From Escherichia coli (GTDB lineage: Bacteria; Pseudomonadota; Gammaproteobacteria; Enterobacterales; Enterobacteriaceae), in the NCBI RefSeq assembly GCF_041886205.1, contig NZ_CP169029.1: DNA of 64,000 nt; one strand, 5' to 3'. Both the position numbers and the translations under genes were made by a program. Numbering within the stretch: position 1 is the stretch's first letter; every line of letters starts with the position of its first letter. Below are positions 1 to 17,461 of the stretch, piece after piece. The notes under the pieces are model-generated. The model did no database searches. It saw only the letters and a list, made by a program, of their open reading frames with translations, and was not told the origin of the DNA.

Positions 1-1
1 A

Positions 2-1519
<1,518 letters not shown>

Positions 1520-1591
1520 GTAAAAAAGTTAGAACGGCAACGCGTACCCTGGGTACGCGTTGTTTGTCTGGAGTTTCAGTTTAACTAGTGA

Positions 1592-2905
<1,314 letters not shown>

Positions 2906-3288
2906 TCCTGTTCTTTAACTCTTAACGTAAAAACCGCTTCGGCGGCAATGCCGATCAGTTAAGGAGCGGTTGACTGATCCTTAAACTGCGGCACTATAAC
3001 GGCTTCCACTCCAGGGAGCCGTTTTCTTATGCCACTTCTCAATGATCTGTTCGCCGCATGAGCCTCAGCGCTGATGGCGAGGTCGGAGAAAAGGTCCTGT
3101 CGCGCAATGCCATTACTCAGGCCCGGCGACGGGTGGCACCGCGCCTCTGGAATGGCTCTTTCATCAGACGGCACAGATCCGGGGAGCAGAACATTACCCC
3201 AAAGATAGCTGGCGTGTATTACAGCCCTTTGTCGTGCACGGGGGACACCGGATAGCAGGAAGTCTGGGGTATATTGCTGGCCTACAAT

Positions 3289-3370
3289 CTGATACGACGG
3301 AAAGCTACAAAGGCAGTAGAAAAGCATAAAAGAGTGCTGAAAGAAATCAGCTTCAAATTTGCCGTATCAG
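3289..3370 (+). repeat. Imperfect direct repeat, copy A (~80 bp) flanking accessory PTS/porin module
   Basis: ctgatacgacggaaagctacaaaggcagtagaaaagcataaaagagtgctgaaagaaatcagcttcaaatttgccgtatcag is repeated with roughly 85% identity at 9475..9554 in the same orientation. Confidence 0.8.
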
Positions 3371-3566
3371 AAAGTAGATGAAATCAGACATTATCTAATA
3401 TTATATTTTGGTTAAAATAGATATCAGAATTTAGCTATCCAATCGGTTTAATAAAATGAACCCGATTAAGATTGCTATGTGCTGAATGTATTTCATTTAA
3501 ATATAAATTAAAAAGTCGCCAGCAAGCTTATTTAACAGAACCGATAAAATAAAAAATGATATAAAT

Positions 3567-4613
3567 TTAGAACCAAAATTCAAGACCGGCGCGGTAAAAA
3601 TAGTCATTACTTTCTGAATTATAGGCGTCAGTTCGACCAATACGGACATAAGGGAGAAAACCATTTTCCATATTCATCATTAACTGTAAAGACGTCACTT
3701 TATCGGCGGTGTCTTTCTGGGTGACATTGTCTATTTTATAATCATTATTTTTGGCATACCCTAGCTTAGCACCATAGATACCATGCCAGTATTCGCCAAT
3801 TAAACTATAGGCATCCTGGGTGCTTTTAACATGGGTAATAAGGTCGGTCGTTTGACCATTTTTATAGCCCGCGTAAAACCTCAGACCAAGATCTGTAATG
3901 GGTATCTCGAGGCCCAAAACATAACCAGAGGCATCCTCCAGATTGTCATTTAACGTGTCATCGGTCGGTTGAACTGATTTGTTGCGAGTTTCTTCATAAG
4001 CAACATGTACTTTCACTGTAGAGAACGGCGTCCAGGTTACCCGTGAGCTGTAAGTCGTCGATCCAGAAACCGTAGAATCATCGCGATTAACGCTGAGAAC
4101 CACATCAAATCCCCCATAGTCTTTTGTTGCAAGGCTACCGTCATAGCGCACCATATTCGACATGCGATTGCTTTGATGCCAATGAACGTCACCTCCCCAG
4201 TCAAAAACGCGACCGAGACCGGGGTTGGTATAAGGCCAGTCAATGATTTCGTATAACGCCCCCTTCATGCGGCCAAAGCGAAGTTTCCCATACTTACCTT
4301 CAAACCCCACAAAGGTATCAAACTTTCCCAGACCAGAGTCGTTGGCCTCATAACCAACATAACCACTTTCAATCTGGAATATAACATTTACACCTTCAGT
4401 TATTTCTTTGTTCCCGCGAAAACCAATATATGATTCGTTATCGAGAGTATAATCATAATTCCTTTCATTGGCCTGAGTGGTAAAAATGGACATGGCTAAT
4501 TTACCATAGATTTCCAGGTTAAAATCTTTTGGCCCTCCCACTTGCATTGCATTTACTATTGTAGGCATAGTCGTAAGCAAAGAAATGCAAATAATATTAC
4601 TTGTTTTATCCAT
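3567..4613 (-). CDS. Putative outer-membrane beta-barrel porin/channel (signal peptide, C-terminal Phe)
   Basis: 348-aa ORF; N-terminal signal peptide ending ...PTIVNA; alternating hydrophobic/aromatic beta-strand pattern throughout; terminal ...GLEFWF typical of OM beta-barrels; AT-rich coding sequence. Confidence 0.7.
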   Translation of the reverse strand: MDKTSNIICISLLTTMPTIVNAMQVGGPKDFNLEIYGKLAMSIFTTQANERNYDYTLDNESYIGFRGNKEITEGVNVIFQIESGYVGYEANDSGLGKFDTFVGFEGKYGKLRFGRMKGALYEIIDWPYTNPGLGRVFDWGGDVHWHQSNRMSNMVRYDGSLATKDYGGFDVVLSVNRDDSTVSGSTTYSSRVTWTPFSTVKVHVAYEETRNKSVQPTDDTLNDNLEDASGYVLGLEIPITDLGLRFYAGYKNGQTTDLITHVKSTQDAYSLIGEYWHGIYGAKLGYAKNNDYKIDNVTQKDTADKVTSLQLMMNMENGFLPYVRIGRTDAYNSESNDYFYRAGLEFWF

Positions 4614-4833
4614 AAGTTGCCCCAGTAATTTTATATCCGAAAAGAGTAAAACCCGCCTTCATGGAGGGCTGTATTCATTACGCCATGAAAGGGCGTATTA
4701 AAATCTTTAAAAAGAAGTCTTCTGCCAGTCCTGTGAGATTTAAATCCAAAGGCAATAAGACAGAGCCAAAACCAGTGGATGACCACGCCCATAGAACGTG
4801 GTTTTCAGTTGGCAATAAATATTGAAAATAGAA

Positions 4834-5691
4834 TTATTTAGTTCTATTGATAATGTCCAGTGAAGATATTATTTTCTCCACATTATCTCCCCGATTAATA
4901 AATAATAACGCATTGAATAAAACATCAACCATAAAACTTTGTGCAGCGGTAATCGTTGATGAATCTGACTGATAAGGATTTGACGTCCCACCCGTCAGTA
5001 AGACAACATCAGCGTACTGACTTAATGAGGAATGCTTTAGTTTACTAATAACAATAGTCATCGCCCCTTTCTCTTTCACTCTTCTTAACGCATCGACAAC
5101 ATCGCGCGTTTCACCAGAGTGTGAAATCGCAACCACCACATCCTTTTTCCCAACGTTGTTCGAATTTAAGGTCATGGTATGATTGTCGATCAGAGCATCG
5201 ACGTTTGCCATAATTCTCATGAATCGATATTTGGCATACAGGACGGATATGGCTGACATACCAATGCCGTAGAAATAAACCTGCCCCGCTTTGCTCAGAC
5301 CGTCAGCTGCACGCATTAGGGTCTGTTCCTCTTGCAGGGCAAGCGTTTCATTGATAACAACGTAATTATCATTAGCCAGCTGTTGTGCAATCCCTGTCAT
5401 GGAGTTCGTCTGCTCATCAAGAGAAATCACTTTTGATAACAATGTATCGTCTGTATCTGTTTCCAGGCGAAGAGTCGTCTTTAATTCTGAAAAGCCCTTG
5501 TATCCCAGCTTTTTACAAAACCGAATAATAGACGCCTCACCAACATTCATTGCATCCGCTAATTTTGCAATGCTCATATTGATGAATTGCATACGATTAT
5601 TTTTAATAAACTGGTAAATACGTATTTCAGTCTGGGTCAATTCATTAATTCTGGTGTTAATTAACGTGTTAAAGACGACTCGGGTTTTCAT
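4834..5691 (-). CDS. RpiR-family transcriptional regulator (HTH + SIS domain)
   Basis: 285-aa ORF; N-terminal HTH segment (IAKLADAMNVGEASIIRFCKKLGYKGFSELK) and C-terminal SIS-like region (VVVAISHSGETRDV); last gene of the PTS operon, 7 bp downstream of the IIA gene. Confidence 0.85.
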   Translation of the reverse strand: MKTRVVFNTLINTRINELTQTEIRIYQFIKNNRMQFINMSIAKLADAMNVGEASIIRFCKKLGYKGFSELKTTLRLETDTDDTLLSKVISLDEQTNSMTGIAQQLANDNYVVINETLALQEEQTLMRAADGLSKAGQVYFYGIGMSAISVLYAKYRFMRIMANVDALIDNHTMTLNSNNVGKKDVVVAISHSGETRDVVDALRRVKEKGAMTIVISKLKHSSLSQYADVVLLTGGTSNPYQSDSSTITAAQSFMVDVLFNALLFINRGDNVEKIISSLDIINRTK

Positions 5692-5698
5692 TAAGTAC

Positions 5699-6004
5699 TC
5701 ACTCCATCTTTTTATAAACCTCTATCAATTCTGTCACAAGTTCACGGCAAAGCATACCTGTCATAAGGTGATCTTGGGCGTGAACCATCACCAGAGTGAT
5801 TTGCAGTTTACCTACCCCCTCATCCAGACCAATTAGCCGAGTCTGCACCTCGTGTGCCTGCCTGAAGGCATCGTCAGAAACCTTTAAAGAGGCTTCCGCT
5901 TCAGCAAAGCTCCCCGCTTTGGCGAACCTGAGCGCCTCCATGGCACAACTGCGACCTTCGCCAGCGGCGATAATCAGCGACATCACATCATTTTCATAGC
6001 TCAT
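5699..6004 (-). CDS. PTS EIIA component, lactose/cellobiose family
   Basis: 101-aa ORF with size and helical pattern of the lactose/cellobiose IIA family; conserved His region (VMVHAQDHLM). Confidence 0.85.
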   Translation of the reverse strand: MSYENDVMSLIIAAGEGRSCAMEALRFAKAGSFAEAEASLKVSDDAFRQAHEVQTRLIGLDEGVGKLQITLVMVHAQDHLMTGMLCRELVTELIEVYKKME

Positions 6005-6040
6005 TTAAATTATCTCGTGTTAGGTATCGGTGGATACGAT

Positions 6041-6352
6041 TCATTTTGATGAAATCAGATCAACGGCCTGTTGATACACTTTTTCACCATTCATAGCCCC
6101 ATACAGTAACGGGCTGATGGCCTCTGATTTCTTGCCATTCATTTCTGCCAGCTTTTGTATTTCCGTCAGCTTAAATCGAATCTGAGGCGCAACCAGTACG
6201 ACGTCATAATTCGCGATGACATCTTTCAGAACATCAACGCCGTGAGCTTCAATAACTGATTCATGGCCGACGGAATTGGCGTAATCTTTCATTCGCTTCA
6301 TTAACATTGAGGTAGACATTCCCGCAGCGCACACTAAAAGTATCTTATTCAT
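6041..6352 (-). CDS. PTS EIIB component, lactose/cellobiose family
   Basis: 103-aa ORF starting MNKILLVCAAGMSTSMLMK; the phospho-Cys loop CAAGMSTS is diagnostic of cellobiose-type IIB. Confidence 0.9.
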   Translation of the reverse strand: MNKILLVCAAGMSTSMLMKRMKDYANSVGHESVIEAHGVDVLKDVIANYDVVLVAPQIRFKLTEIQKLAEMNGKKSEAISPLLYGAMNGEKVYQQAVDLISSK

Positions 6353-6376
6353 AGCAATTACCCGTCATTGATAAAA

Positions 6377-7921
6377 TTATGTCACAGTAATATGTAAACC
6401 ACTCATCCGCCGGAAAGGGGCGGAAATGGAAGTGATCGTAGGACTGCGGCCGTTAAAGCTATAGTGAATATTTTCCATCCAGGTCTTTTCGATTTCAGAC
6501 TTAATTTTATCGAACACCATCGTTTCCTTTTCTTCAAATGAGGAATAGCTCTGGCCAATTGAAGGTAAATATTCAAACTGAACAGGGAAGCGGACTTCGG
6601 TCTGGTAAGCCCAGTCCGATACCAGCCTTTCTTTTAAGAAACGTTCGATAGCGTCAGCATTATCGCCCATGGTCGAAAAGACAAGGTTCGCTATCCCCGT
6701 ACCTAACGAATTACACGTTGTGTTCCAGCCTGCGTAGCCCTTAATGGTATCGAGTGCGCCGGCTTTATCCAGCGCCCGAATAAGTTCAGTTTCACCGCCG
6801 TTTGACATCGCCACATCGATGACTACCACTGACACCTGCAAAGCTCTGCTGGCAATTTCTTTTGCATAGGTCACCAGGTCACGATGGGTGTAGTAAGTGA
6901 TATTTTTATACTTTGGCTTCCGCACACCGGTATGCAGGTTATAGCCATAGCTAATATCAAAAGCCTCCTGCATTATCTCACCGCACCCATTGATCGCTAA
7001 AACAGGCAGCGAGGCATCATTATCGACCAACGTTATACCCGACGCGGCTGCATACGAACGCAGTGAGTGTATAAAAGGACGATCTTCATAATTCGGGATA
7101 TAGGTTTTAAACAGTTCGTTTGAATAGAGTGTGGTGGCTATAAAATCCTTTTTCCTCATCGACAAATAGGCTTTGGTCAACAATGTGCATCCAGACTCAT
7201 CGGTGCCAGGATGAACAAACACCCGGTCCTGTACCCCAAGCAGGGATATCTTTTCGTAAATGCGTTCCTGATCCTGCATCGTAAAACCAAATTCCGCGGT
7301 ATCGTCCAGCGGGATTATCAGCTGATCGATAATCTTTTCATCAACGAGTTCTATCGCATTCTCAATGAGCTGCAGATTTTTACTTCTGCGCGACAGCCAG
7401 TCGTCAAAGGAAGCAGAATTAATAGCGGAACGATGTGCAAGCAGATGCGCTTTTTCGTCTTCGCTCAGCCCGACACGCTTCTCTTTGTCAGACAGATAAC
7501 CAACCTGAAAAATTGAATGCCCGATATGTGCATAGTAATCCGGTTCTTCTTCACTGGAATTATATTTTGGCGTACGTAGCACCAGTGAAGATGCATAAAT
7601 CTTAAGTGCCGGATAACTTTCTTTCAGTGTTTTAATTTTATTTAACCTTGCTATAAGCTCAGTTAATTCCATCTGATGAATACGCGCGGGAAAAAGTCCA
7701 CCGTAGAGATACATATCCAGGCTGATAATTAACGCATCGGAATCGGCACAGTGGCTGTTTATAAAGTCATCTACAGCCTGATGTGAAGCTGGTTGTTTTT
7801 TGTATCCTAAAATCTCTTTCGCTGGCATTTTTAACGAAATATTGCTGTCCATCGAGGCCAGAGAAATCAGGAAGTCATAGTTATAAGGTCGGATATCCAG
7901 AGGTATGCTAATTATATTCAT
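6377..7921 (-). CDS. Uncharacterised 514-aa protein embedded in PTS operon (possibly DUF4127-like)
   Basis: Long intact AT-rich ORF, tightly spaced between the IIC and IIB genes (15 bp and 24 bp gaps); no signal peptide or TM segments evident; no catalytic motif I can assign by eye. The family guess comes from memory of size and PTS context only. Confidence 0.6.
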   Translation of the reverse strand: MNIISIPLDIRPYNYDFLISLASMDSNISLKMPAKEILGYKKQPASHQAVDDFINSHCADSDALIISLDMYLYGGLFPARIHQMELTELIARLNKIKTLKESYPALKIYASSLVLRTPKYNSSEEEPDYYAHIGHSIFQVGYLSDKEKRVGLSEDEKAHLLAHRSAINSASFDDWLSRRSKNLQLIENAIELVDEKIIDQLIIPLDDTAEFGFTMQDQERIYEKISLLGVQDRVFVHPGTDESGCTLLTKAYLSMRKKDFIATTLYSNELFKTYIPNYEDRPFIHSLRSYAAASGITLVDNDASLPVLAINGCGEIMQEAFDISYGYNLHTGVRKPKYKNITYYTHRDLVTYAKEIASRALQVSVVVIDVAMSNGGETELIRALDKAGALDTIKGYAGWNTTCNSLGTGIANLVFSTMGDNADAIERFLKERLVSDWAYQTEVRFPVQFEYLPSIGQSYSSFEEKETMVFDKIKSEIEKTWMENIHYSFNGRSPTITSISAPFRRMSGLHITVT

Positions 7922-7936
7922 GTGCTCTTTCTCTGA

Positions 7937-9259
7937 TTATTTCTGTTTATTCATGGCGAAAACAAATGGCAGATAAATGATAACCGACAAGCTGATTAAA
8001 AATACGGATAGCACCGCAGCTCTCCAGTCTCCTCCCGTAGCCAGGAAGGCGCTAATCACTGGTGGCGTTGTCCATGGCACAAGAACATATGTATGGTTAA
8101 TCAAATCCATTGCCGTCGCGGCATAAGCAATCACGATGCTGATAATCGGAGTGAATAAAAATGGTACAATTAGCACCGGGTTGAACATAATTGGCAAACC
8201 AAAAATGATGGGTTCATTTATGTTGAACAACATCCCAGGAGTTGCCAGACGAGTAATCGCACGATGCTCTGATTTTTTCGCTGCAATCCATAAAGCAATC
8301 AGTAAGCCGATTGTCTGGCCTCCGCCGCCCATAAATCCAAAGGCATCGATGAACGGTTTTGTGACGATATGTGGGATTTCAAGGCCAGCCTTAAACGCGG
8401 CAGTATTTTCCTGAATCGCCACCAGCAGGGTTGTCTCAGTAATAGGGTACATGATACTGGCACCATGGATCCCTGCCCACCATAATCCGTTTTGCGTCAA
8501 AAGTAGTCCTATTACTCCGCTCAGACCCTGTAAAATATTTTGCAGCGGAGCCTGAATCATCAGAGTAACGATTTCATGTATGTTTTTGTTGAAGAGACTG
8601 CTTAACGACCATGCAAAGAGACTCAGCAAGGTTAACACCAGGATCATCGGTATTAATACGTTAAAGCTCCTTGATACGGAGGGGGGAACTGAATCAGATA
8701 AAGTAATTTTCAATTTAGATGAGGCCGAAACTTTGCGAAAAAGTTCAGTGGAAATAAGCGCCACAAATATGCCTACAAACATACCAGACGCGCCACTTTC
8801 ATTGCCGCTGATTAGCCCCGAAACCTGAAAAACCTCGCCCGTCGGCGCTGTAACGGGAATGGTGACCGGGAACAAAACAAATAAACATGCCAGTGAGAAG
8901 ATGGCATACGTTATCCCATCCTCGCCATAGCTGTTGGCTAATCGATATGAAATCATCACCGTTGCCAGAAAGGCGAGAATATTCAGCGTTCCGTTATAGA
9001 CGCGGATGCCAATTTCCTGTAGGTGGCGAACCCATGCGCCTTCCAGCCCCAGAAAACCGACTAAACCGGATTCGCCGTTGAGCAATACATTATTTATTAA
9101 TATAAATAGAGACGCAGCAATAATTAAAGGCATGAGCGCGACAAATGATTCCCTCACTGCCGAAAGATGTCGCTGTCCTGAAAAATCGCCCGCCCAATTA
9201 GAGATCTTGTCAATGAAAACAAGACCACTCCCACTTTTAATTTTATTGATGAAATTCAT
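7937..9259 (-). CDS. PTS EIIC permease, lactose/cellobiose family
   Basis: 440-aa polytopic membrane protein with multiple hydrophobic segments; first gene of the operon IIC-unknown-IIB-IIA-RpiR. Confidence 0.85.
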   Translation of the reverse strand: MNFINKIKSGSGLVFIDKISNWAGDFSGQRHLSAVRESFVALMPLIIAASLFILINNVLLNGESGLVGFLGLEGAWVRHLQEIGIRVYNGTLNILAFLATVMISYRLANSYGEDGITYAIFSLACLFVLFPVTIPVTAPTGEVFQVSGLISGNESGASGMFVGIFVALISTELFRKVSASSKLKITLSDSVPPSVSRSFNVLIPMILVLTLLSLFAWSLSSLFNKNIHEIVTLMIQAPLQNILQGLSGVIGLLLTQNGLWWAGIHGASIMYPITETTLLVAIQENTAAFKAGLEIPHIVTKPFIDAFGFMGGGGQTIGLLIALWIAAKKSEHRAITRLATPGMLFNINEPIIFGLPIMFNPVLIVPFLFTPIISIVIAYAATAMDLINHTYVLVPWTTPPVISAFLATGGDWRAAVLSVFLISLSVIIYLPFVFAMNKQK

Positions 9260-9474
9260 ATAAGAAAATCTCGCGCCCTAGATATTAGTTTCAGCGTATT
9301 TTATTTATCCCCTTTCGTAATACTGTTAGCTTTGTCACAAAACTCCAAAAATTCCAACTAAAATGATACTAAATGGAGTTTTTTTGGTTTTGTAATCTAC
9401 CGTTCTGGAGTCTGGTATTAACAATAAAAGCGGCTTTCGCAGGAGGATAAATCATCAGCATTTGTCCAGACAAG

Positions 9475-9554
9475 CTGATACGACGGGAAGCTATAAAGGT
9501 ACAGAAAAGCATAAAAGAGCGCCGTTAGAAATCAGCTTTAAATTTGCCTTTCAG
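9475..9554 (+). repeat. Imperfect direct repeat, copy B (partner of 3289..3370)
   Basis: ctgatacgacgggaagctataaaggtacagaaaagcataaaagagcgccgttagaaatcagctttaaatttgcctttcag; same orientation as copy A. Confidence 0.8.
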
Positions 9555-9759
9555 TTTATACAACAGAAATGATAGTGCCGGGAAACACGTCGTCGCCGGG
9601 AATGCTCCCAAGAGACTGGAGTATCGGAGGGGAAACCTGGAAGCGCTGTTCATAACAAAACGCCCCGACCGTCAAGGCCGCGGGTGGTGAAGATATCAAA
9701 ACGTCCATGCTGTTCCGCTTAAGTGAACGGCATTGCGCTGCAGTGGGTTTTTTATGCCT

Positions 9760-10584
9760 TCAAAGTAGTAGCGGTAGGGTCGCACTCGCCGTTTGCTGGC
9801 TCACATCGTTGTACTTTTCATCCAGTCCAAACAGCGACGTGGTGAGCAGTTCCACCAACAGCATGACACCAACCTTGGCGTTTAGCGCGCCAGCACTCAA
9901 CGGACCTTCTGGTTTGGCTGCGACCAGTTGAATATCACTCAGCGAAGCCAGCGGACTATGCGGTGTATTACTCAGCGCCAGTATGCGTACACCTTGCTTA
10001 CGCGCCAGTTTAACCACATGCAGCAGATCGCGTGTGGAGCCTGAACTGGATATTGCCACTACCAGCGTGTCTTTGCTTAGCGTTGTAGCGTTCATAGCAG
10101 CACGGTGCATGTCGCTGAACAATTGCGCGGGTTTGCCGAGGCGCAGGAGTTTGTAATGTAAATACTCTCCCAGAATAGCGCTGGCCGCTACGCCATAAAT
10201 TTGTACCGACTGAGCCTGATGCAGCGCCAGAGCGGCTGCTTCCAGTAATGTTCTGTCGAGTAATTTTGCCGTGTCCTGCAGCGCTTGCACGGATTCATTG
10301 ACGACATTGTCAATCTCATCACCGCTGCGCTCTACCAGCTCTCCTTGCCGGAGATCGAGTGCCAGCGCCATCTTAAATTCGTTATAGCCCTTACACCCCA
10401 GCGTACGGCACAGACGTGTGACGCTCGCCTCGCTGGTGTCGCTTTCACGCGCCAGTTCGGTAATCGTCAGGTAGACCACTCTTGCCGGATCGCTAAGCAC
10501 AAACTCTCCCAGCTTCTGTTGAGTTCGACTATATCCATCAACGCTCTGGCGCAATCTCAGCAGTAGGTTTTCATTTTCTGACAT
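9760..10584 (-). CDS. RpiR/MurR-like transcriptional regulator (HTH + SIS)
   Basis: 274-aa ORF; N-terminal HTH (ITELARESDTSEASVTRLCRTLGCKGYNEFK), SIS-type C-terminal domain (LVVAISSSGSTRDL); divergent from the EIICB gene. Confidence 0.85.
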   Translation of the reverse strand: MSENENLLLRLRQSVDGYSRTQQKLGEFVLSDPARVVYLTITELARESDTSEASVTRLCRTLGCKGYNEFKMALALDLRQGELVERSGDEIDNVVNESVQALQDTAKLLDRTLLEAAALALHQAQSVQIYGVAASAILGEYLHYKLLRLGKPAQLFSDMHRAAMNATTLSKDTLVVAISSSGSTRDLLHVVKLARKQGVRILALSNTPHSPLASLSDIQLVAAKPEGPLSAGALNAKVGVMLLVELLTTSLFGLDEKYNDVSQQTASATLPLLL

Positions 10585-10710
10585 GCAAAATCCTTAATGC
10601 GTTTCTCTGCCGATAGTGTGGCGGAAAGTAGGGGAGAGATGCTAGTCATTTTAAAAAAGTATGATCGGTGCCCTGGTTTTTGATGGTAATTTTCATTTTT
10701 ATAATTAGTT

Positions 10711-12306
10711 GTGGTAAAAATTTTCATCAAAGAGCGGGGAGATGAAAAAATGATGCAAATATTTAGCGGCGCTTCGTCAGGCGCATGGTTTGAAAAAGCG
10801 CAGCGGTTCGGCAAATCGTTCATGCTGCCGATTGCGGTATTGCCCGCAGCGGGGTTGTTGTTGGGGATTGGTGGGGCTCTGTCGAATCCCAATACGCTGA
10901 CGGCCTACCCATTCTTGAATGTCGACTGGCTGCAGGCAATTTTCACGATCATGACCAGCGCAGGTTCTATCGTGTTTGCCAACCTGTCGGTGCTTTTTGC
11001 GGTTGGTGTTGCCGTGGGACTGGCGAAAACGGATAAAGGCACGGCGGGCCTTGCGGCATTGCTGGCTTTTCTGGTGATGAATGCCACCATCAATGCTTTG
11101 TTAACGCTCAACGGAACGTTGGCGCACGAAAATCCAGGTGCTGTGGGCCAAGGGATGACGCTGGGCATTCAGACGCTGGAAACGGGCGTTTTTGGCGGGG
11201 TCGTGATTGGTCTGGTCACCTGCGCACTGCATAACCGTTTCAATAAAGTCTCACTCCCTCAGTTTCTTGGCTTTTTCAGTGGTTCGCGTTTTGTACCGAT
11301 TATCAGTTCGCTTGCCGCGATTGTAGTGGGGGTGATCATGACGGTGGTATGGCCGCATTTCCAGAAGCTCATTTTTGGACTGGGCGGTCTGGTGGATGCG
11401 ACGGGCTATCTGGGGACGCTACTGTATGGTTTCATTCTGCGTATGCTTGGCCCACTGGGTTTACACCATATCTTTTATTTGCCGTTCTGGACAACAGCGC
11501 TGGGAGGGAGCGAAATCGTCAACGGTCAACTGGTCGAAGGCACCCAGCGTATTTTCTTTGCCCAACTTGCCGATCCGAATACGCAGCAGTTTTATGCCGG
11601 TACCTCGCGCTTTATGTCCGGGCGCTTTATCACCATGATGTTTGGCCTGCTTGGCGCATGCCTCGCGATGTACCACACGGCAAAACCGGAGAAGAGAAAG
11701 CTTGTCGCCGGACTGCTGTTGTCGGCGGCCCTGACTTCTTTCCTGACGGGCATCACTGAGCCTATTGAGTTCTCCTTCCTGTTTGTGGCTCCGGTGTTAT
11801 ATGTCATTCACGCCTTCTTCGATGGTCTGGCGTTTATGATGGCGCATATTTTACATATCACTATTGGGCAAACCTTTTCGGGTGGACTGATCGATTTCCT
11901 CCTCTTCGGCGTGCTACAGGGGGAAGCGAAAACCAACTGGATGTACGTCCCCTTGGTTGGGGTTCCGTGGTTCTTTCTTTACTACTTCACCTTCCGTTAT
12001 TTGATTAACCGTTTTAACTGGCTGACGCCCGGGCGCGAGAACACAGCCCAGGTGGAGTCCGGTCTGCCTCAGAGCGAACGCGCAGCGGCAGTCATCGCCG
12101 GACTGGGAGGCAAAGAGAATCTGGAAGAGGTGGACTGTTGCGCCACACGCTTACGCGTGACGGTGAAAGAGAGCAGCAAGGTAGATGAAGCTGCGCTGAA
12201 AGCGACCGGAGCGCGTGGCGTAATTATTCGCGGCAACGGTGTTCAGGTGATTTATGGCCCGCATGTCACCATAATTAAAAATGAAGTCGAAGAGATCTTA
12301 TCATGA
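10711..12306 (+). CDS. PTS EIICB component, glucose/N-acetylglucosamine superfamily
   Basis: 531-aa ORF; N-terminal IIC membrane domain, C-terminal IIB domain with the phospho-Cys motif ([11 protein letters not shown]). The start may instead be an internal Met at about 10750 (MMQIFSG...). Stop overlaps the next gene's start (ATGA). Confidence 0.85.
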
Positions 12307-12995
12307 TGAAAACTGTACTGGATTCCCTGAAAGGTAAACTAATTGTCTCCTGCCAGGCGCTGGAAAATGAACCCCTGCACAGCCCGTTTATTATGTCGCG
12401 TATGGCGCTGGCGGCAGCGCAGGGCGGTGCGGCAGGTATCCGTGCTAACAGCGTGGTAGATATTCGCTCGATCAAAGAGAGCGTCTCCCTGCCGGTAATA
12501 GGGATTATCAAGCGTGATTATCCGGGCTGCGAGGTGTTTATTACGGCCACTTTGCAGGAAGTGGATGAGCTGATGACCGTTGAGCCGGAAATTATTGCTC
12601 TGGATGCGACAGCGCGCCCGCGCCCCGGTGGGCAAATGCTGGAAGAGCTGGTTATGCAAATCCGTGTCCGCTATCCGTCCGTACTGCTGATGGCGGATAT
12701 CGCCACCGTCGATGAGGCGGTAACAGCCGAGCGGCTGGGTTTTGACTGCGTGGGCACCACGCTCTATGGCTATACCGCGGACACTGCCGGGCATGTAATG
12801 GTGGATAACGACTGCGGTTTTTTACGTGAGGTGTTGGCGGCGGTCACAATACCGGTCGTGGCGGAAGGTAATATCGATACCCCGGAACGCGCCGCACGTT
12901 GCCTGGCATTAGGCGCGCATACCGTGGTGGTTGGAGGCGCTATCACGCGTCCGCAGCAGATAACGGCACGATTTGTCGCGGCGATCGCCTCGTAA
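12303..12995 (+). CDS. Putative N-acetylmannosamine-6-phosphate 2-epimerase (NanE family)
   Basis: 230-aa ORF ([26 protein letters not shown]...) with NanE-like TIM-barrel pattern; translationally coupled to the EIICB gene. Confidence 0.8.
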
Positions 12996-13066
12996 AGCAT
13001 CGATGGGGCATGATACTTTGGCGGGGATCTGCGATAATTAACGTTTATCCCCATATTGAGAGCGCT

Positions 13067-13738
13067 ATGCAGTACCCGATTAACGAGATGTTCCAGACCC
13101 TGCAAGGTGAGGGTTACTTTACCGGCGTCCCCGCCATTTTTATTCGTTTACAGGGATGCCCGGTTGGCTGTGCCTGGTGCGACACCAAACACACCTGGGA
13201 AAAGCTTGAGGATCGGGAAGTCTCCCTTTTCAGCATTCTGGCGAAGACCAAAGAGAGTGATAAGTGGGGGGCGGCGAGCAGTGAAGACTTGCTGGCTGTC
13301 ATTGGTCGCCAGGGATACACCGCGCGGCATGTGGTGATTACGGGGGGGGAGCCTTGCATTCATGATTTGCTGCCACTGACTGACCTACTCGAAAAGAACG
13401 GTTTTAGCTGCCAGATCGAAACCAGTGGTACTCATGAAGTACGCTGCACACCGAATACCTGGGTTACCGTATCGCCAAAGCTGAACATGCGCGGCGGCTA
13501 TGAAGTGTTGTCACAGGCACTGGAGCGAGCCAACGAAATCAAGCATCCTGTGGGGCGCGTACGCGATATTGAAGCACTGGATGAACTACTGGCAACGCTG
13601 ACCGATGATAAACCGCGAGTCATTGCACTGCAGCCGATTAGCCAAAAGGATGATGCCACACGATTGTGCATTGAAACCTGTATTGCGCGTAATTGGCGTT
13701 TGTCGATGCAAACACATAAATATTTAAATATTGCCTAA
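13067..13738 (+). CDS. queE: 7-carboxy-7-deazaguanine synthase
   Basis: Start taken at the internal ATG 13067 of ORF 12899..13738 (MQYPINEMFQTLQGEGYFTGVPAIFIRLQGCPVGCAWCDTKHTW), giving a 223-aa radical-SAM protein with CxxxCxxC-type cluster motif. Confidence 0.93.
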   Translation: MQYPINEMFQTLQGEGYFTGVPAIFIRLQGCPVGCAWCDTKHTWEKLEDREVSLFSILAKTKESDKWGAASSEDLLAVIGRQGYTARHVVITGGEPCIHDLLPLTDLLEKNGFSCQIETSGTHEVRCTPNTWVTVSPKLNMRGGYEVLSQALERANEIKHPVGRVRDIEALDELLATLTDDKPRVIALQPISQKDDATRLCIETCIARNWRLSMQTHKYLNIA

Positions 13739-14077
13739 TTACACATTTATAAGCGTTATAAATGGGTGGAACTTGTAAAGAATTCCACTCATTTGTATTA
13801 TTTGTCGCCCCTGAAAACTCATCCATCTTGCCCATCCCGGACTAATCATTATCATTCTCTACAAATTCTGCGGCGTTAATTTTTCGCTGGAGTGAAAATT
13901 ATTGCGGCGAAGTTTGGTAGATTTTAGTTTGTATAGAGTTATTTTAAATATTTACCTTTTTAATCAAAAGATTAAGTGCTCTTTAACATAATGGATGTGT
14001 TGTTTGTGTGATACTGTAAAGTTGGTAGATTGTGACTGGCTTAAAAAATCATTAATTAATAATAGGTTATGTTTAGA
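13739..14077 (+). promoter_or_regulatory. CRISPR leader (AT-rich) of the queE-adjacent type I-E array
   Basis: ~340-bp AT-rich non-coding segment ending ...cattaattaataataggttatgtttaga immediately before the first repeat; matches my memory of the E. coli I-E leader terminus. Confidence 0.8.
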
Positions 14078-14350
14078 GAGTTCCCCGCGCCAGCGGGGAT
14101 AAACCGTTCGCTGGCAATCCACTCAGGAATTTCGGGAAGAGTTCCCCGCGCCAGCGGGGATAAACCGGGCAGTACCGACATGGACGGTCACCACGAGTTG
14201 AGTTCCCCGCGCCAGCGGGGATAAACCGTGTATAGCGCCAAAATTGACGAAAGACATGTTGAGTTCCCCGCGCCAGCGGGGATAAACCGGTTGTAGCTGA
14301 CAATGTAAATCATGGATTTACGAGTTCCCCGTGCCAGCGGGGATAACCAT
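14078..14350 (+). CRISPR. Type I-E CRISPR array: 5 repeats (last degenerate), 4 spacers of 32 bp
   Basis: 29-bp repeat GAGTTCCCCGCGCCAGCGGGGATAAACCG at 14078, 14139, 14200, 14261; degenerate terminal repeat gagttccccgtgccagcggggataaccat at 14322..14350. Spacers at 14107..14138, 14168..14199, 14229..14260, 14290..14321. Confidence 0.97.
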
Positions 14351-14360
14351 TCAGGTATGT

Positions 14361-14930
14361 TCAGGCCGGGCAGTTTCCCGCCCGGCCTTCCTCACTTACG
14401 CATTCGACCAGCTCTGGATCGAATCCGCATTCCCCATGCATCACTTCATACGATTTTTTCAGTATTACATCATTATGTTTGGTTAGGTCTTTGAAAATGC
14501 CTTTATTCATCGCGTCGTAGCGTTTGGCATTGCTCTCAATCGGTATAAAGATATCTTTCACGCGAACCATTTTGTCGACAGCCGTTGCGTAATCCGGGTA
14601 TAGTCCCAGACCTACCGCCGTATTAATCGCTGCCCCCAGACTTGCACAACCGTTAATGGCGTTACGTCGTGCCGGAAGGTTGAACATGTCGGCAAAAATC
14701 TGCATAAACAGATCGCTGTTCGAACCGCCGCCAGTAATGATCACATGCTTTGCAAAGTGATTCATTTCATTACGCATATTGTCGTAATTGTTCTTCAGCG
14801 TCAGAGCCACGCTTTCCAGTATCGAACGATATATCCATGCGTAACGCGCAAGCGCTGCCTGCAATACCGGCACCAATAATAATAATGTCGCAGTCATCTT
14901 CCGTGTCATACCCCAAATATCCAGACTCAA
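14361..14930 (-). pseudogene. ygcE: 3' remnant of FGGY-family sugar kinase (ygcE-like), N-terminal ~300 codons missing
   Basis: ORF encodes only a C-terminal FGGY-like segment (...HVIITGGGSNSDLFMQIFADMFNLPARR...); a full kinase would be ~490 aa, but queD begins only ~50 bp upstream, so no room for the N-terminal domain. Confidence 0.7.
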
Positions 14931-14980
14931 CTCCCTGACCGAGCCTTACTTAAGGGAAATTGACCGCCGACACACTCTTA

Positions 14981-15346
14981 TCATTCGCCGCGATAGATAC
15001 AACCTGCGGTGCAGGTTTCTTTTACCATCACCGCACTTAACAGCGGCACAACGGGTTTAACCTGATCCCAAATCCATTTTGCTAAAACTTCGCTGGTTGG
15101 GTTTTCCAGACCTGGAATATCATTGAGATAATGGTGATCGAGGCGCTCGTAGGTTGGCTTAAACGCCGCTTTCAGTTCAGCGAAATCGATAATCCAGCCC
15201 GTATGCGGATCGACTTCCCCGGTAATTTCCAGTCGCACCATAAAGGAATGCCCGTGCAGGCGACCACATTTATGCCCTTCCGGGACGTGTGGTAAGCGGT
15301 GAGCGGCTTCGAAGGTGAAATCTTTAAATAACGTGGTGGACATCAT
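14981..15346 (-). CDS. queD: 6-carboxy-5,6,7,8-tetrahydropterin synthase
   Basis: Start taken at internal Met ([35 protein letters not shown]...), 121 aa; divergent from cysJ. Confidence 0.93.
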
Positions 15347-15661
15347 AATTTCTCTACAGGACGATAAAACCGCCGTAGAGTACCGGAAAGGCTGTTTTTT
15401 CGCATTATCTAAAACGACTTTGTTGCGCAAAATCGCTGATTTATCTTATTGATGGGCAATATTCATTTGTTTTTCATTAGGTTGGTTAATCTATTTTGTT
15501 GTTAAAGACTATTGCTAAAACAGGTTAGTCGATTTGGTTATTAGTTATCGCTATCCCGTCTTTAATCCACACCGTTCACCCCGTTAACCTTACCTTCTCT
15601 TCTGTTTTATGGGCGCTGACAGGGCGCAGAAACAGCTTTGCTTACTGGAACATAACGACGC

Positions 15662-17461
15662 ATGACGACACAGGTCCCACCTTCCGCGTTGCTTCCGTTG
15701 AACCCGGAGCAACTGGCACGCCTTCAGGCGGCCACGACCGATTTAACTCCCACCCAGCTTGCCTGGGTTTCTGGCTATTTCTGGGGCGTGCTCAACCAGC
15801 AGCCTGCTGCGCTTGCAGCGACGCCAGCGCCCGCCGCAGAAATGCCGGGTATAACTATTATCTCTGCTTCGCAAACCGGCAATGCGCGCCGGGTTGCTGA
15901 AGCATTACGCGATGATTTATTAGCAGCAAAACTGAACGTTAAGCTGGTGAACGCGGGCGACTATAAATTCAAACAAATCGCCAGCGAAAAACTGCTTATC
16001 GTGGTGACGTCAACGCAAGGGGAAGGGGAACCACCGGAAGAAGCCGTCGCGCTGCATAAGTTCCTGTTCTCCAAAAAAGCGCCGAAGCTGGAAAACACCG
16101 CGTTTGCCGTGTTTAGCCTCGGCGATAGTTCTTATGAATTTTTCTGCCAGTCCGGGAAAGATTTTGACAGCAAGCTGGCGGAACTGGGTGGTGAACGCCT
16201 GCTCGACCGTGTCGATGCCGATGTTGAATACCAGGCTGCTGCCAGCGAGTGGCGCGCCCGCGTGGTTGATGCGCTTAAATCGCGTGCGCCTGTCGCGGCA
16301 CCTTCGCAATCCGTCGCTACTGGCGCGGTAAATGAAATCCACACCAGCCCGTACAGCAAAGACGCGCCGCTGGTGGCTAGCCTCTCTGTTAACCAGAAAA
16401 TTACCGGGCGTAACTCTGAAAAAGACGTTCGCCATATCGAAATTGACTTAGGTGACTCGGGTCTGCGTTACCAGCCGGGTAACGCGCTGGGTGTCTGGTA
16501 TCAGAACGATCCGGCACTGGTGAAAGAACTTGTCGAACTGCTGTGGCTGAAAGGCGATGAACCTGTCACCGTCGAGGGCAAAACGTTGCCTCTGAACGAA
16601 GCGCTACAGTGGCACTTCGAACTGACCGTCAACACCGCCAACATTGTTGAGAATTACGCCACGCTTACCCGCAGTGAAACACTGCTGCCGCTGGTGGGCG
16701 ATAAAGCGAAGTTACAGCATTACGCCGCGACGACGCCGATTGTTGACATGGTGCGTTTCTCCCCGGCACAGCTTGATGCCGAAGCGCTAATTAATCTGCT
16801 GCGCCCGCTGACCCCGCGCCTGTATTCCATCGCCTCCTCGCAGGCTGAAGTCGAGAACGAAGTACACGTCACCGTTGGCGTGGTGCGTTACGACGTGGAA
16901 GGCCGCGCCCGTGCCGGTGGTGCCTCCAGCTTCCTCGCGGACCGCGTGGAAGAAGAGGGCGAAGTCCGCGTATTTATCGAACATAACGATAACTTCCGCC
17001 TGCCCGCTAACCCGGAAACCCCGGTGATTATGATTGGCCCAGGCACCGGCATCGCGCCGTTCCGCGCCTTTATGCAGCAACGTGCTGCCGACGAAGCACC
17101 GGGTAAAAACTGGCTGTTCTTTGGCAACCCGCACTTTACGGAAGATTTCCTCTACCAGGTGGAGTGGCAGCGCTACGTCAAAGAGGGTGTGCTAACGCGG
17201 ATCGATCTCGCCTGGTCGCGCGATCAAAAAGAAAAAGTTTACGTACAAGACAAACTGCGCGAACAGGGCGCGGAGCTGTGGCGCTGGATCAATGACGGTG
17301 CCCACATTTATGTCTGCGGCGACGCTAATCGCATGGCGAAAGACGTTGAGCAGGCACTTCTGGAAGTGATTGCCGAATTTGGTGGCATGGACACCGAAGC
17401 GGCTGATGAATTTTTAAGTGAGCTGCGCGTAGAGCGCCGTTATCAGCGAGATGTCTACTAA
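15662..17461 (+). CDS. cysJ: Sulfite reductase [NADPH] flavoprotein alpha subunit
   Basis: 599-aa ORF with flavodoxin-like N-terminus and FAD/NADPH reductase C-terminus (...RYQRDVY); stop overlaps cysI start. Confidence 0.96.

What the first reader, a model, noticed from the sequence alone, without database searches (positions are those of the whole stretch)
4834..9259. PTS lactose/cellobiose-family operon in which an unassignable 514-aa protein replaces the expected phospho-glycosidase
Operon order on the minus strand is IIC (7937..9259), unknown 514 aa (6377..7921), IIB (6041..6352), IIA (5699..6004), RpiR regulator (4834..5691), with 7 to 36 bp gaps indicating co-transcription. Cellobiose-type PTS operons normally carry a GH1 or GH4 6-phospho-glycosidase; none is present. 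The 514-aa protein has no signal peptide, no TM segments and no motif I can assign, so it is the obvious candidate for a novel phospho-sugar processing activity. It may belong to the DUF4127 family (recalled from memory, unverified). An RpiR/SIS regulator suggests a phospho-sugar effector.
Basis: partly seen in the sequence, partly recalled or inferred. Interest (0 to 1): 0.75.

Follow-up and report, generated by a model that had tools for sequence, protein, structure and literature searches.

The report
PTS operon with uncharacterised DUF4127 enzyme
A rare, horizontally acquired E. coli sugar-uptake operon carries, in place of the usual sugar-splitting enzyme, a conserved protein family of unknown function (DUF4127) whose gene neighbours in many bacteria suggest it makes N-acetylmannosamine-6-phosphate, which makes it a good candidate for a new carbohydrate enzyme.

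Summary
Five minus-strand ORFs lie at the stated coordinates with 7-36 nt gaps: IIC, a 514-aa protein, IIB, IIA and RpiR. No GH1 or GH4 enzyme is present.

I compared 86 loci from several phyla.
- DUF4127 lies beside NanE in 48 of the 63 loci that carry a transporter.
- Thirty loci have a dedicated Lac-family PTS IIC and never a kinase.
- Thirty-three have an ABC importer, nearly always with a ROK kinase.
- NanA is never present.
- Fusions occur with NanE, ROK, esterases and a HAD phosphatase.
- Cronobacter has a minimal IIC-DUF4127-NanE operon at the same eno-queE site.

Best reading: DUF4127 cleaves a phosphorylated ManNAc-containing sugar, probably a β-linked disaccharide such as ManNAc-β1,4-GlcNAc, and releases ManNAc-6-P for NanE. 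The chemistry is inferred, not shown.

In E. coli the island is rare (9 of 5426 complete genomes) and often damaged by IS elements.

The parts
7937..9259 (-). PTS EIIC of the lactose/cellobiose family, belonging to a subfamily that travels with DUF4127
   Evidence: TIGR00410 scores 362 bits (cut-off 236); the protein falls below the cut-offs of the cellobiose, chitobiose and lactose equivalog models. It is 48-49% identical (about 410 bits) to the DUF4127-linked EIICs of Bacillaceae and Clostridium, against 221 bits to B. cereus ChbC, PDB 3QNQ.
6377..7921 (-). DUF4127 protein, 514 aa, cytoplasmic; the candidate cleaving enzyme that yields ManNAc-6-P
6041..6352 (-). PTS EIIB (Lac family)
   Evidence: TIGR00853 E 1.2e-24.
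5699..6004 (-). PTS EIIA (Lac family)
   Evidence: The best models are ChbA-type NF007768 (120.9 bits) and TIGR00823 (109.5 bits), both below cut-off.
4834..5691 (-). RpiR/MurR-family regulator (HTH plus SIS); the probable phospho-sugar sensor of the operon
   Evidence: NCBIfam MurR/RpiR models. The best solved relatives are S. pneumoniae NanR (8V4V/8TX9, 77 bits) and V. vulnificus NanR (4IVN, 71 bits).
3567..4613 (-). Outer-membrane porin related to the Vibrio chitoporin; a conserved last gene of the cluster
   Evidence: PDB 5MDQ/5MDO/7EQM chitoporins, E 6e-35. The same porin follows RpiR in Vibrio (L002) and in the 87%-identical homologue locus L091.
9324..9393 (-). Upstream control region of IIC: inverted repeat AAAACTCCA/TGGAGTTTT (9339-9347 and 9374-9382) and a CRP-like TGTGA-N6-TAACA site (9324-9339)
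   Evidence: The inverted repeat was found in the window, in L091 and, with 16-nt arms, in Vibrio L002. Its function as an operator or CRP site is inferred.
2959..3363 (.). Left IS4-family transposase remnant; includes the left copy of the 80-nt direct repeat (3284-3363)
   Evidence: Direct repeats 3284-3313/9470-9499 and 3318-3363/9503-9548 at about 90% identity.
9470..9722 (.). Right IS4-family transposase remnant; includes the right copy of the direct repeat (9470-9548)
   Evidence: RefSeq annotates an IS4 pseudogene here in strain 6EVA. The repeats are shown.
9760..10584 (-). Second RpiR regulator, NanR-like (neighbouring module)
   Evidence: PDB 4IVN (V. vulnificus NanR with ManNAc-6-P), E 1.8e-70.
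10711..12306 (+). Glc-family PTS IIBC (neighbouring module); presumed ManNAc or hexosamine transporter
   Evidence: TIGR02002 scores 592.8 bits. The module is present in 481 of 5426 E. coli genomes.
12303..12995 (+). NanE, ManNAc-6-P 2-epimerase; the nearest copy of the predicted next step after DUF4127
   Evidence: NF002231 scores 310 bits (cut-off 189). It is 74% identical to the NanE that directly follows IIC-DUF4127 in Cronobacter at the same eno-queE site.

Best explanation
This is an acquired catabolic operon for a ManNAc-containing sugar. The proposed steps are as follows. (1) A chitoporin-like porin lets a small HexNAc-type saccharide through the outer membrane (inferred). (2) A dedicated Lac/cellobiose-family PTS (IIC, IIB, IIA) imports and phosphorylates it; family membership is shown, the substrate is inferred. 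(3) The cytoplasmic DUF4127 protein cleaves the phosphorylated sugar and releases ManNAc-6-P. DUF4127 is a multi-domain alpha/beta protein whose conserved residues are rich in Arg, Tyr, Asp and Glu. This step is inferred from gene context, gene fusions and the PTS-versus-kinase complementarity. (4) NanE converts ManNAc-6-P to GlcNAc-6-P, which enters the NagA/NagB route (established pathway). (5) The RpiR protein senses a sugar phosphate and controls the promoter, which carries a conserved palindrome (inferred). The most likely chemistry is hydrolysis of a beta-linked 6-phospho-N-acetylmannosaminide. The leading candidate substrate is ManNAc-beta-1,4-GlcNAc, the 2'-epimer of chitobiose, which is common in Gram-positive wall polymers. 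On this reading DUF4127 is the functional stand-in for the GH1/GH4 6-phospho-glycosidase. The general claim, an enzyme that feeds NanE in a NanA-independent route, I hold at about 0.8. The specific glycosidase chemistry I hold at about 0.5. The exact disaccharide I hold at about 0.3.
For: Identity: DUF4127 matches over its full length. No known family matches by sequence or fold. The AF2 model is confident.

Context in 86 loci:
- NanE lies within 7 kb in 22 of 30 PTS-type loci and 26 of 33 ABC-type loci.
- A ROK kinase is present in none of the 30 PTS-type loci. In the ABC-type loci I counted 14 stand-alone ROK genes and 24 ROK-RpiR fusions.
- No other glycosidase is conserved in PTS-type operons.
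- No NanA homologue occurs in any locus (the query was validated).

Minimal operon: IIC-DUF4127-NanE lies between eno and queE in Cronobacter. In Vibrio, nanE lies divergent from IIC-DUF4127-IIB-IIA-RpiR-porin.

Fusions: DUF4127-NanE (P0130; NF002231 289 bits), DUF4127-ROK, and fusions with esterases, GHL10 and FAD_oxidored. Listeria riparia carries HAD-DUF4127.

Same substrate in both locus types: no group-specific positions separate PTS-type from ABC-type DUF4127. Seven Arg, eight aromatic residues and five acidic sites are invariant.

Evidence for a disaccharide: the PTS belongs to the Lac/chitobiose family and forms a dedicated subfamily that travels with DUF4127. The porin is closest to the chitoporin. 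Among specific NCBIfam models, the ROK domains closest to DUF4127 score best on BglK, a disaccharide 6'-kinase, although below its cut-off. The ABC binding protein resembles oligosaccharide binders. In Limibacter the gene sits in a SusC/SusD locus beside GH38.

Natural occurrence: beta-ManNAc-(1-4)-GlcNAc, partly O-acetylated, occurs in Bacillus and Paenibacillus wall polymers (PMC6801904). This fits the esterases in these loci.
Against: - There is no biochemical evidence at all; the reaction is inferred only from context.
- Several conserved partners have no role in the model. These are the Cof-type HAD phosphatase (23 of 30 PTS-type loci, and fused once), the PF12831 flavoprotein (25 of 33 ABC-type loci), and GH38.
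- Cyanobacterial members have no informative context.
- The E. coli operon has no NanE of its own, and it is IS-disrupted or deleted in 7 of 11 genomes.
- The BglK-likeness of the kinases is below the model cut-off.
- The operon's RpiR is only distantly related to the NanR proteins.
Confidence: 0.5

Rival explanations
1. DUF4127 is a NanA-independent sialic-acid (nonulosonic acid) lyase. The transporter takes up Neu5Ac or a relative. The PTS or the ROK kinase phosphorylates it, or its product. DUF4127 then splits it into ManNAc(-6-P) plus pyruvate, taking the place NanA holds in nan clusters.
Against: Lac/cellobiose-family PTS systems carry beta-glycosides (family knowledge), and I know of no sialic-acid PTS (own knowledge). 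The chitoporin-like porin, the BglK-like kinases, the GH38 and GHL10 partners and the SusC/SusD context all point to oligosaccharides. Many hosts are soil Bacillaceae, Paenibacillus and cyanobacteria. There is no aldolase-like fold. No Lys is strictly invariant in the 43-sequence alignment; K41 is at least 97% conserved over 86 sequences.
Confidence: 0.12
2. DUF4127 acts on a modified monosaccharide phosphate rather than on a glycosidic bond. It would remove or rearrange a substituent, such as an ether, acyl, ketal or amide group, or epimerise the sugar, to give ManNAc-6-P. This would be analogous to the MurQ etherase acting on MurNAc-6-P.
For: The active-site residues are the same in PTS-type and kinase-type loci, which fits a phosphorylated small substrate. 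One subdomain has an SGNH-like fold. RpiR/MurR-type control is used for MurNAc-6-P. The esterases show that the substrate is decorated.
Against: The classical SGNH pattern is not apparent among the conserved positions; this was not tested formally. Separate esterases are already present. Porin, PTS family and kinase type all favour a disaccharide. No candidate modified ManNAc is known to be abundant (own knowledge).
Confidence: 0.2
3. DUF4127 acts downstream of or beside NanE, for example as an alternative GlcNAc-6-P or ManNAc-6-P deacetylase, or it is a non-catalytic accessory protein. In that case the PTS simply imports ManNAc.
For: A ManNAc importer plus NanE would already be a complete route. 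DUF4127 shows no recognisable catalytic motif.
Against: A 500-aa protein with 56 near-invariant polar, aromatic and glycine positions across phyla looks like an enzyme. It is the one constant of all 86 loci, whereas nagA and nagB are not among the conserved neighbours. The window already holds a separate NanR-IIBC-NanE module that would serve for ManNAc itself. The fusions with esterases and GHL10 place it upstream in a glycan-degrading route.
Confidence: 0.08
4. In E. coli the operon is a decaying passenger. It would be a recently acquired, probably silent island that contributes nothing in this host, whatever the family does elsewhere.
For: The island is present in only 9 of 5426 complete genomes. 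It has low GC and is bracketed by IS4 remnants. IS1 interrupts IIC in 3 genomes, ISEc52 interrupts DUF4127 in 2, and 2 genomes carry a deletion.
Against: In the window and in 4 complete genomes all six genes are intact and 99.9-100% identical. The upstream palindrome and the CRP-like site are conserved with Vibrio. This rival concerns expression in E. coli, not the function of the family, and it is compatible with the best explanation.
Confidence: 0.3

Closest known systems
E. coli / Vibrio chitobiose system (chbBCARFG with the chitoporin ChiP)
   Same: Both have a Lac/cellobiose-family IIC, IIB and IIA. The IIA is closest to the ChbA model and the IIC is related to ChbC, PDB 3QNQ. Both have a chitoporin-type porin and the logic of importing and phosphorylating a beta-linked HexNAc disaccharide and then cleaving it in the cytoplasm.
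   Different: There is no GH4 ChbF and no ChbG deacetylase; DUF4127 stands in their place. The regulator is RpiR/SIS rather than the AraC-type ChbR. The pathway is tied to NanE (ManNAc-6-P), not only to GlcNAc-6-P. The IIC belongs to a separate subfamily.
Canonical sialic-acid (nan) clusters: NanA, NanK, NanE, RpiR-type NanR, sialate esterases
   Same: NanE, a ROK kinase (in non-PTS loci), RpiR regulators related to the ManNAc-6-P sensors, and O-acetyl esterases recur around DUF4127.
   Different: NanA is absent from all 86 loci and DUF4127 sits where NanA would be. The transporters are Lac-family PTS systems or oligosaccharide-type ABC systems. GH38 and GHL10 partners are present.
MupG (DUF871, later GH170), the 6-phospho-N-acetylmuramidase in the S. 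aureus MurNAc-GlcNAc PTS operon (recalled from memory, not checked here)
   Same: It is a precedent for a domain of unknown function, encoded in a PTS operon under RpiR/MurR-type control, turning out to be the missing 6-phospho-glycosidase for a cell-wall disaccharide.
BglK beta-glucoside kinase plus 6-phospho-beta-glucosidase routes
   Same: ABC-type DUF4127 loci pair an importer with a ROK kinase that scores best on BglK among specific models. This would give the same phospho-disaccharide that a PTS makes.
   Different: The scores are far below the BglK cut-off (145-167 bits against 550). The kinase is often fused to RpiR. The cleaving enzyme is DUF4127, not GH1 or GH4.
SGNH/GDSL hydrolases (for example Phocaeicola sialate esterase, PDB 7PZG)
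   Different: Only about 11% identity over less than a third of the protein. The classical Ser-Gly-Asn-His pattern is not apparent among the conserved positions. This is a fold-level resemblance only.

Membership tests
Pfam DUF4127 (PF13552) | A significant full-length match to the family HMM | tested here: met
   E 7.3e-121, residues 3-505 against model positions 1-482 of 489. RefSeq names the identical protein 'DUF4127 family protein'.
GH1 / GH4 6-phospho-beta-glycosidases | A sequence match to the GH1 or GH4 families | tested here: not met
   Pfam returned only DUF4127. NCBIfam returned nothing. No PDB sequence hit, with either a single sequence or a profile.
GH1 / GH4 6-phospho-beta-glycosidases | A TIM-barrel (GH1) or NAD-binding Rossmann (GH4) catalytic fold | tested here: not met
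PTS lactose/cellobiose family (IIC, IIB, IIA) | IIC reaches the subfamily model cut-off, and separate IIB and IIA proteins of the same family are present | tested here: met
   TIGR00410 scores 362 bits against a cut-off of 236. IIB matches TIGR00853 and IIA matches TIGR00823/NF007768. The solved relative is 3QNQ, E 3e-64.
Cellobiose- or chitobiose-specific PTS (equivalog level) | The score reaches the curated equivalog cut-off | tested here: not met
   TIGR00359 scores 362 against 434. ChbC NF007634 scores 237 against 760. NF007157 scores 189 against 503. LacE TIGR00394 scores 166 against 614.
Canonical nan (sialic acid) catabolic cluster | N-acetylneuraminate lyase NanA is present | tested here: not met
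   BLASTP with E. coli NanA (validated against PDB 1NAL) found no hit in any ORF of the 86 loci or in window 1-16000.
Canonical nan (sialic acid) catabolic cluster | NanE is present, with an RpiR-type regulator | tested here: met
   NanE lies at 12303-12995 (310 bits, cut-off 189). NanE is present in 48 of the 63 loci that carry a transporter. RpiR is present in 24 of 30 PTS-type loci.
SGNH hydrolases | The catalytic Ser-Gly-Asn-His blocks | tested here: inconclusive
Glycoside hydrolase (any family) | Demonstrated hydrolysis of a glycosidic bond by a pair of carboxylates | not testable with these tools

The most novel reading that the evidence does not exclude
DUF4127 is the founding member of a new glycoside hydrolase family whose overall fold matches no solved structure. 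It would be a 6-phospho-beta-N-acetylmannosaminidase, an activity I found no description of. It would define a NanA-independent route to ManNAc-6-P that spans several phyla and lets bacteria, including some E. coli, Vibrio and Cronobacter, feed on the ManNAc-beta-1,4-GlcNAc units of Gram-positive wall teichoic acid linkage units and secondary cell-wall polymers.
Probability: 0.35. Interest if true: 0.8.

Novelty: new variant of a known kind. Interest (0 to 1): 0.62.

Why it matters
If the inference holds, a family of about 1,600 sequence clusters, currently a DUF, becomes an enzyme with a defined place in amino-sugar catabolism. It is found in Firmicutes, Actinobacteria, Bacteroidota, cyanobacteria, Vibrio and Enterobacteriaceae. 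A second route to ManNAc-6-P, independent of sialic acid lyase, would be established.

The finding also suggests what happens to the ManNAc-GlcNAc units of Gram-positive wall polymers, whose breakdown is poorly described as far as I know. It gives carbohydrate-enzyme classification a candidate new family with an unmatched fold.

The prediction can be tested directly with one recombinant protein, a coupled NanE assay and a few substrates. For E. coli biology the effect is small, because the island is rare and often inactivated.

Tried and rejected
- **Literature.** There were no papers for 'DUF4127', 'PF13552' or 'N-acetylmannosaminidase'. Searches combining NanE, cellobiose PTS, RpiR and Vibrio islands returned only canonical nan clusters. 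'PF12831' gave nothing useful.
- **NanA substitution by a hidden NanA.** Rejected, because no DHDPS-family ORF occurs in any locus.
- **Different substrates in PTS-type and ABC-type DUF4127.** I expected phosphate-binding residues specific to one group and found none except F/W at position 53.
- **An 'empty site' in strains VE-T9 and XJ5.2.** VE-T9 turned out to carry a deletion running into the neighbouring IIBC gene. XJ5.2 shows the same 120-nt match, but I did not open its region.
- **Promoter and terminator scans.** The number of promoter-like sites was no higher than in shuffled sequence, so this was uninformative.
- **Context of a cyanobacterial homologue.** P0054 is not on record, and P0056 has no informative neighbours.

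Full report
**1. The observation**

On the minus strand lie IIC (7937-9259), a 514-aa ORF (6377-7921), IIB (6041-6352), IIA (5699-6004) and RpiR (4834-5691). The gaps between them are 15, 24, 36 and 7 nt.

NCBIfam places IIC in the lactose/cellobiose IIC subfamily (TIGR00410, 362 bits, cut-off 236). IIC stays below every substrate-specific equivalog cut-off. IIB, IIA and RpiR match their families.

Pfam matches the 514-aa protein to DUF4127 (PF13552) over its full length, E 7.3e-121. None of the cluster's proteins is a GH1 or GH4 enzyme.

**2. Where the window comes from**

The window is an E. coli chromosome. Region 3400-9700 is 99.9-100% identical to 9 of 5426 complete genomes. It lies between eno and queE.

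The 6.1-kb module has 40-46% GC against 50-56% in the flanks. It is bracketed by IS4-transposase remnants that share an 80-nt direct repeat, 3284-3363 and 9470-9548, at about 90% identity.

A sixth gene belongs to the cluster. It is a porin (3567-4613, minus strand) whose closest solved relatives are the Vibrio chitoporins, E 6e-35. The same porin follows RpiR in Vibrio and in an 87%-identical homologue locus.

Next to the module sits a second one: a NanR-like RpiR (PDB 4IVN, E 1.8e-70; 4IVN is V. vulnificus NanR with ManNAc-6-P), a Glc-family IIBC, and NanE. This second module occurs in 481 of 5426 E. coli genomes.

Eleven complete genomes carry the island.
- Four are intact.
- Three have IS1 in IIC.
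- Two have ISEc52 in DUF4127.
- Two match only the first 120 nt of the module. In VE-T9 this is a deletion that runs from near the porin into the IIBC gene; XJ5.2 was not opened.

**3. What the 514-aa protein is**

It has no NCBIfam model and no PDB relative, whether searched by sequence or by profile. No paper in the searched library names the family.

With an alignment of 43 homologues, AlphaFold gives a confident model (pLDDT 95.3, pTM 0.94). The model consists of several alpha/beta units with long helical inserts.
- Foldseek against AFDB50 returns only DUF4127 proteins.

The overall architecture therefore has no characterised relative.

Across 86 sequences, 56 positions are at least 97% conserved. 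They include seven Arg, K41, H82, seven Tyr plus W399, four acidic pairs (E125/E126, D206/D207, D241/E242, E279/D280) and D369. Judging from the secondary-structure string, most of them follow beta-strands. That is where alpha/beta enzymes usually place their active sites. I could not map them in 3D.

**4. Gene context**

The family is moderately large. There are 1585 clusters at E 0.001 or better in the representative library and 454 hits among 100,044 species genomes.

I clustered all ORFs within 7 kb of DUF4127 in 86 loci. Three classes emerge.

| Class | Loci | NanE | RpiR | ROK kinase | Other partners |
|---|---|---|---|---|---|
| PTS-type (Lac-family IIC) | 30 | 22 | 24 | 0 | Cof-type HAD phosphatase 23, SGNH esterase 10 |
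| ABC-type | 33 | 26 | 9 stand-alone, 24 as ROK-RpiR fusions | 14 stand-alone, 24 as ROK-RpiR fusions | PF12831 flavoprotein 25, GH38 16, AXE1 esterase 11, HAD 0 |
| Other (mostly cyanobacteria) | 23 | 0 | 0 | 2 | no conserved neighbours |

Further points from the context:
- A kinase is present only where the transporter does not phosphorylate. This is the expected signature of one pathway entered in two ways.
- NanA has no homologue in any locus (the query was validated).
- No other glycosidase is conserved in the PTS-type operons.
- Cronobacter malonaticus carries a minimal IIC-DUF4127-NanE operon at the same eno-queE site. Its NanE is 74% identical to the window's NanE.
- Vibrio has nanE divergent from an operon identical in order to the E. 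coli one.
- Natural fusions join DUF4127 to NanE (289 bits on NF002231), ROK kinases, SGNH and alpha/beta-hydrolase esterases, GHL10, a PF12831 flavoprotein and a HAD phosphatase.
- The window's IIC is 48-49% identical to DUF4127-linked IICs of Bacillaceae and Clostridium, about 410 bits. It scores 221 bits against B. cereus ChbC. The transporter subfamily therefore travels with DUF4127.

**5. Mechanism**

*Shown.* The gene order, the family memberships, the link to NanE, the PTS-versus-kinase complementarity, the absence of NanA, GH1 and GH4, the fusions, and the unmatched fold.

*Inferred.* DUF4127 acts between the phosphorylating uptake step and NanE, and produces ManNAc-6-P.

No position distinguishes PTS-type from ABC-type DUF4127 except F/W at position 53. 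Both types probably bind the same chemical species. The proteobacterial operons have neither a kinase nor a phosphatase. That species is therefore most simply the phosphorylated sugar, with the ROK kinase acting before DUF4127 in ABC-type loci.

Several lines favour a beta-linked disaccharide.
- The PTS belongs to the Lac/chitobiose family.
- The porin resembles the chitoporin.
- The ROK domains nearest to DUF4127 score best on BglK, a disaccharide 6'-kinase, although below its cut-off.
- The ABC binding protein is of the oligosaccharide type.
- GH38 and GHL10 are partners, and in Limibacter the gene sits in a SusC/SusD locus.

ManNAc-beta-1,4-GlcNAc is the leading candidate. It is the 2'-epimer of chitobiose. 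It occurs, partly O-acetylated, in Bacillus and Paenibacillus wall polymers (PMC6801904). That would also explain the esterases.

The operon's RpiR is about equally distant (71-77 bits) from the ManNAc-6-P sensors SpNanR and VvNanR and from other RpiR proteins, so its ligand is open.

Upstream of IIC, an inverted repeat AAAACTCCA/TGGAGTTTT and a CRP-like half-palindrome are conserved with Vibrio. They are candidate control sites.

**6. Rivals and loose ends**

- A NanA-like lyase acting on (phospho)sialic acid would explain the nan-like gene set and the esterases. It fits poorly with the PTS family, the porin, the kinases, the glycosidase partners and the soil and cyanobacterial hosts. I give it about 0.12.
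- A reaction on a decorated ManNAc-6-P monosaccharide, in the manner of an etherase or deacylase, remains possible. I give it about 0.2.
- A role downstream of NanE, or a non-catalytic role, is unlikely. I give it about 0.08.
- Independently of these, the E. coli copy may be silent or decaying.

Four things remain unexplained: the Cof-type HAD phosphatase (present in PTS-type loci only, and once fused to DUF4127), the PF12831 flavoprotein, GH38, and the context-free cyanobacterial genes.

**7. Comparison and verdict**

In logic this is a chitobiose-type PTS operon, and in gene set a nan-like cluster. The cleaving enzyme is a family of unknown function with an unmatched fold. It is a member of DUF4127. 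It is not a member of GH1, GH4 or the NanA family.

I rate it a new variant of a known kind. Interest is 0.62. The family-level prediction is specific and cheap to test, and it could add a new enzyme family and a new route to ManNAc-6-P. Against that, the chemistry is inferred from context only, and the E. coli instance is rare and frequently inactivated.

Noticed in passing
window 14078-14351: A CRISPR array of five repeats (GAGTTCCCCGCGCCAGCGGGGATAAACCG, period 61) lies just beyond queE. It is annotated as CRISPR in strain 6EVA.
   Followed up: partly
window 2959-3363 and 9470-9722: Two IS4-family transposase remnants share an 80-nt direct repeat at about 90% identity (3284-3363 and 9470-9548). 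They bracket the 6.1-kb DUF4127 module, which suggests insertion or recombination at an old IS copy.
   Followed up: partly
window 9760-12995: A separate module holds a NanR-like RpiR (PDB 4IVN, E 1.8e-70), a Glc-family PTS IIBC and NanE. It is probably a ManNAc PTS route. It is present in 481 of 5426 E. coli genomes, mostly at 87-89% identity elsewhere on the chromosome.
   Followed up: partly
window 9324-9393: Upstream of IIC lie a conserved inverted repeat AAAACTCCA/TGGAGTTTT and a CRP-like TGTGA-N6-TAACA site. Both are also present upstream of the Vibrio operon (L002 6528-6598) and in L091.
   Followed up: partly
L077 9197-11527 (Listeria riparia): A natural fusion of a Cof-type HAD phosphatase (residues 5-256) with DUF4127 (residues 269-771). 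The same HAD sits directly upstream of DUF4127 in 23 of 30 PTS-type loci and in none of the 33 ABC-type loci. Its role is unknown.
   Followed up: partly
L021, L022, L047 and 21 other Bacillaceae loci (for example L047 7225-8904): A ROK kinase domain is fused to an RpiR (HTH plus SIS) regulator in proteins of about 560 aa, encoded next to DUF4127. The kinase half scores best on BglK among specific models.
   Followed up: partly
L062 3280-4653 and P0239 residues 507-998: A PF12831 'FAD dependent oxidoreductase' is present in 25 of 33 ABC-type DUF4127 loci and is fused to DUF4127 in P0239. No function can be proposed.
   Followed up: no
L090 (E. coli VE-T9) 7001-8512: A deletion derivative of the island. 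The sequence runs from just inside the module's left end directly into a 5'-truncated IIBC gene, which removes the whole DUF4127 operon and the NanR-like regulator.
   Followed up: yes
window 13067-13739: queE is annotated as frameshifted in the otherwise identical strain 6EVA. The window shows one continuous ORF across it, 12899-13738.
   Followed up: no
L091 198-6379: In the metagenomic contig carrying the 87%-identical homologue, the DUF4127 operon lies next to a pgaABCD (poly-beta-1,6-GlcNAc) locus rather than at the eno-queE site.
   Followed up: no
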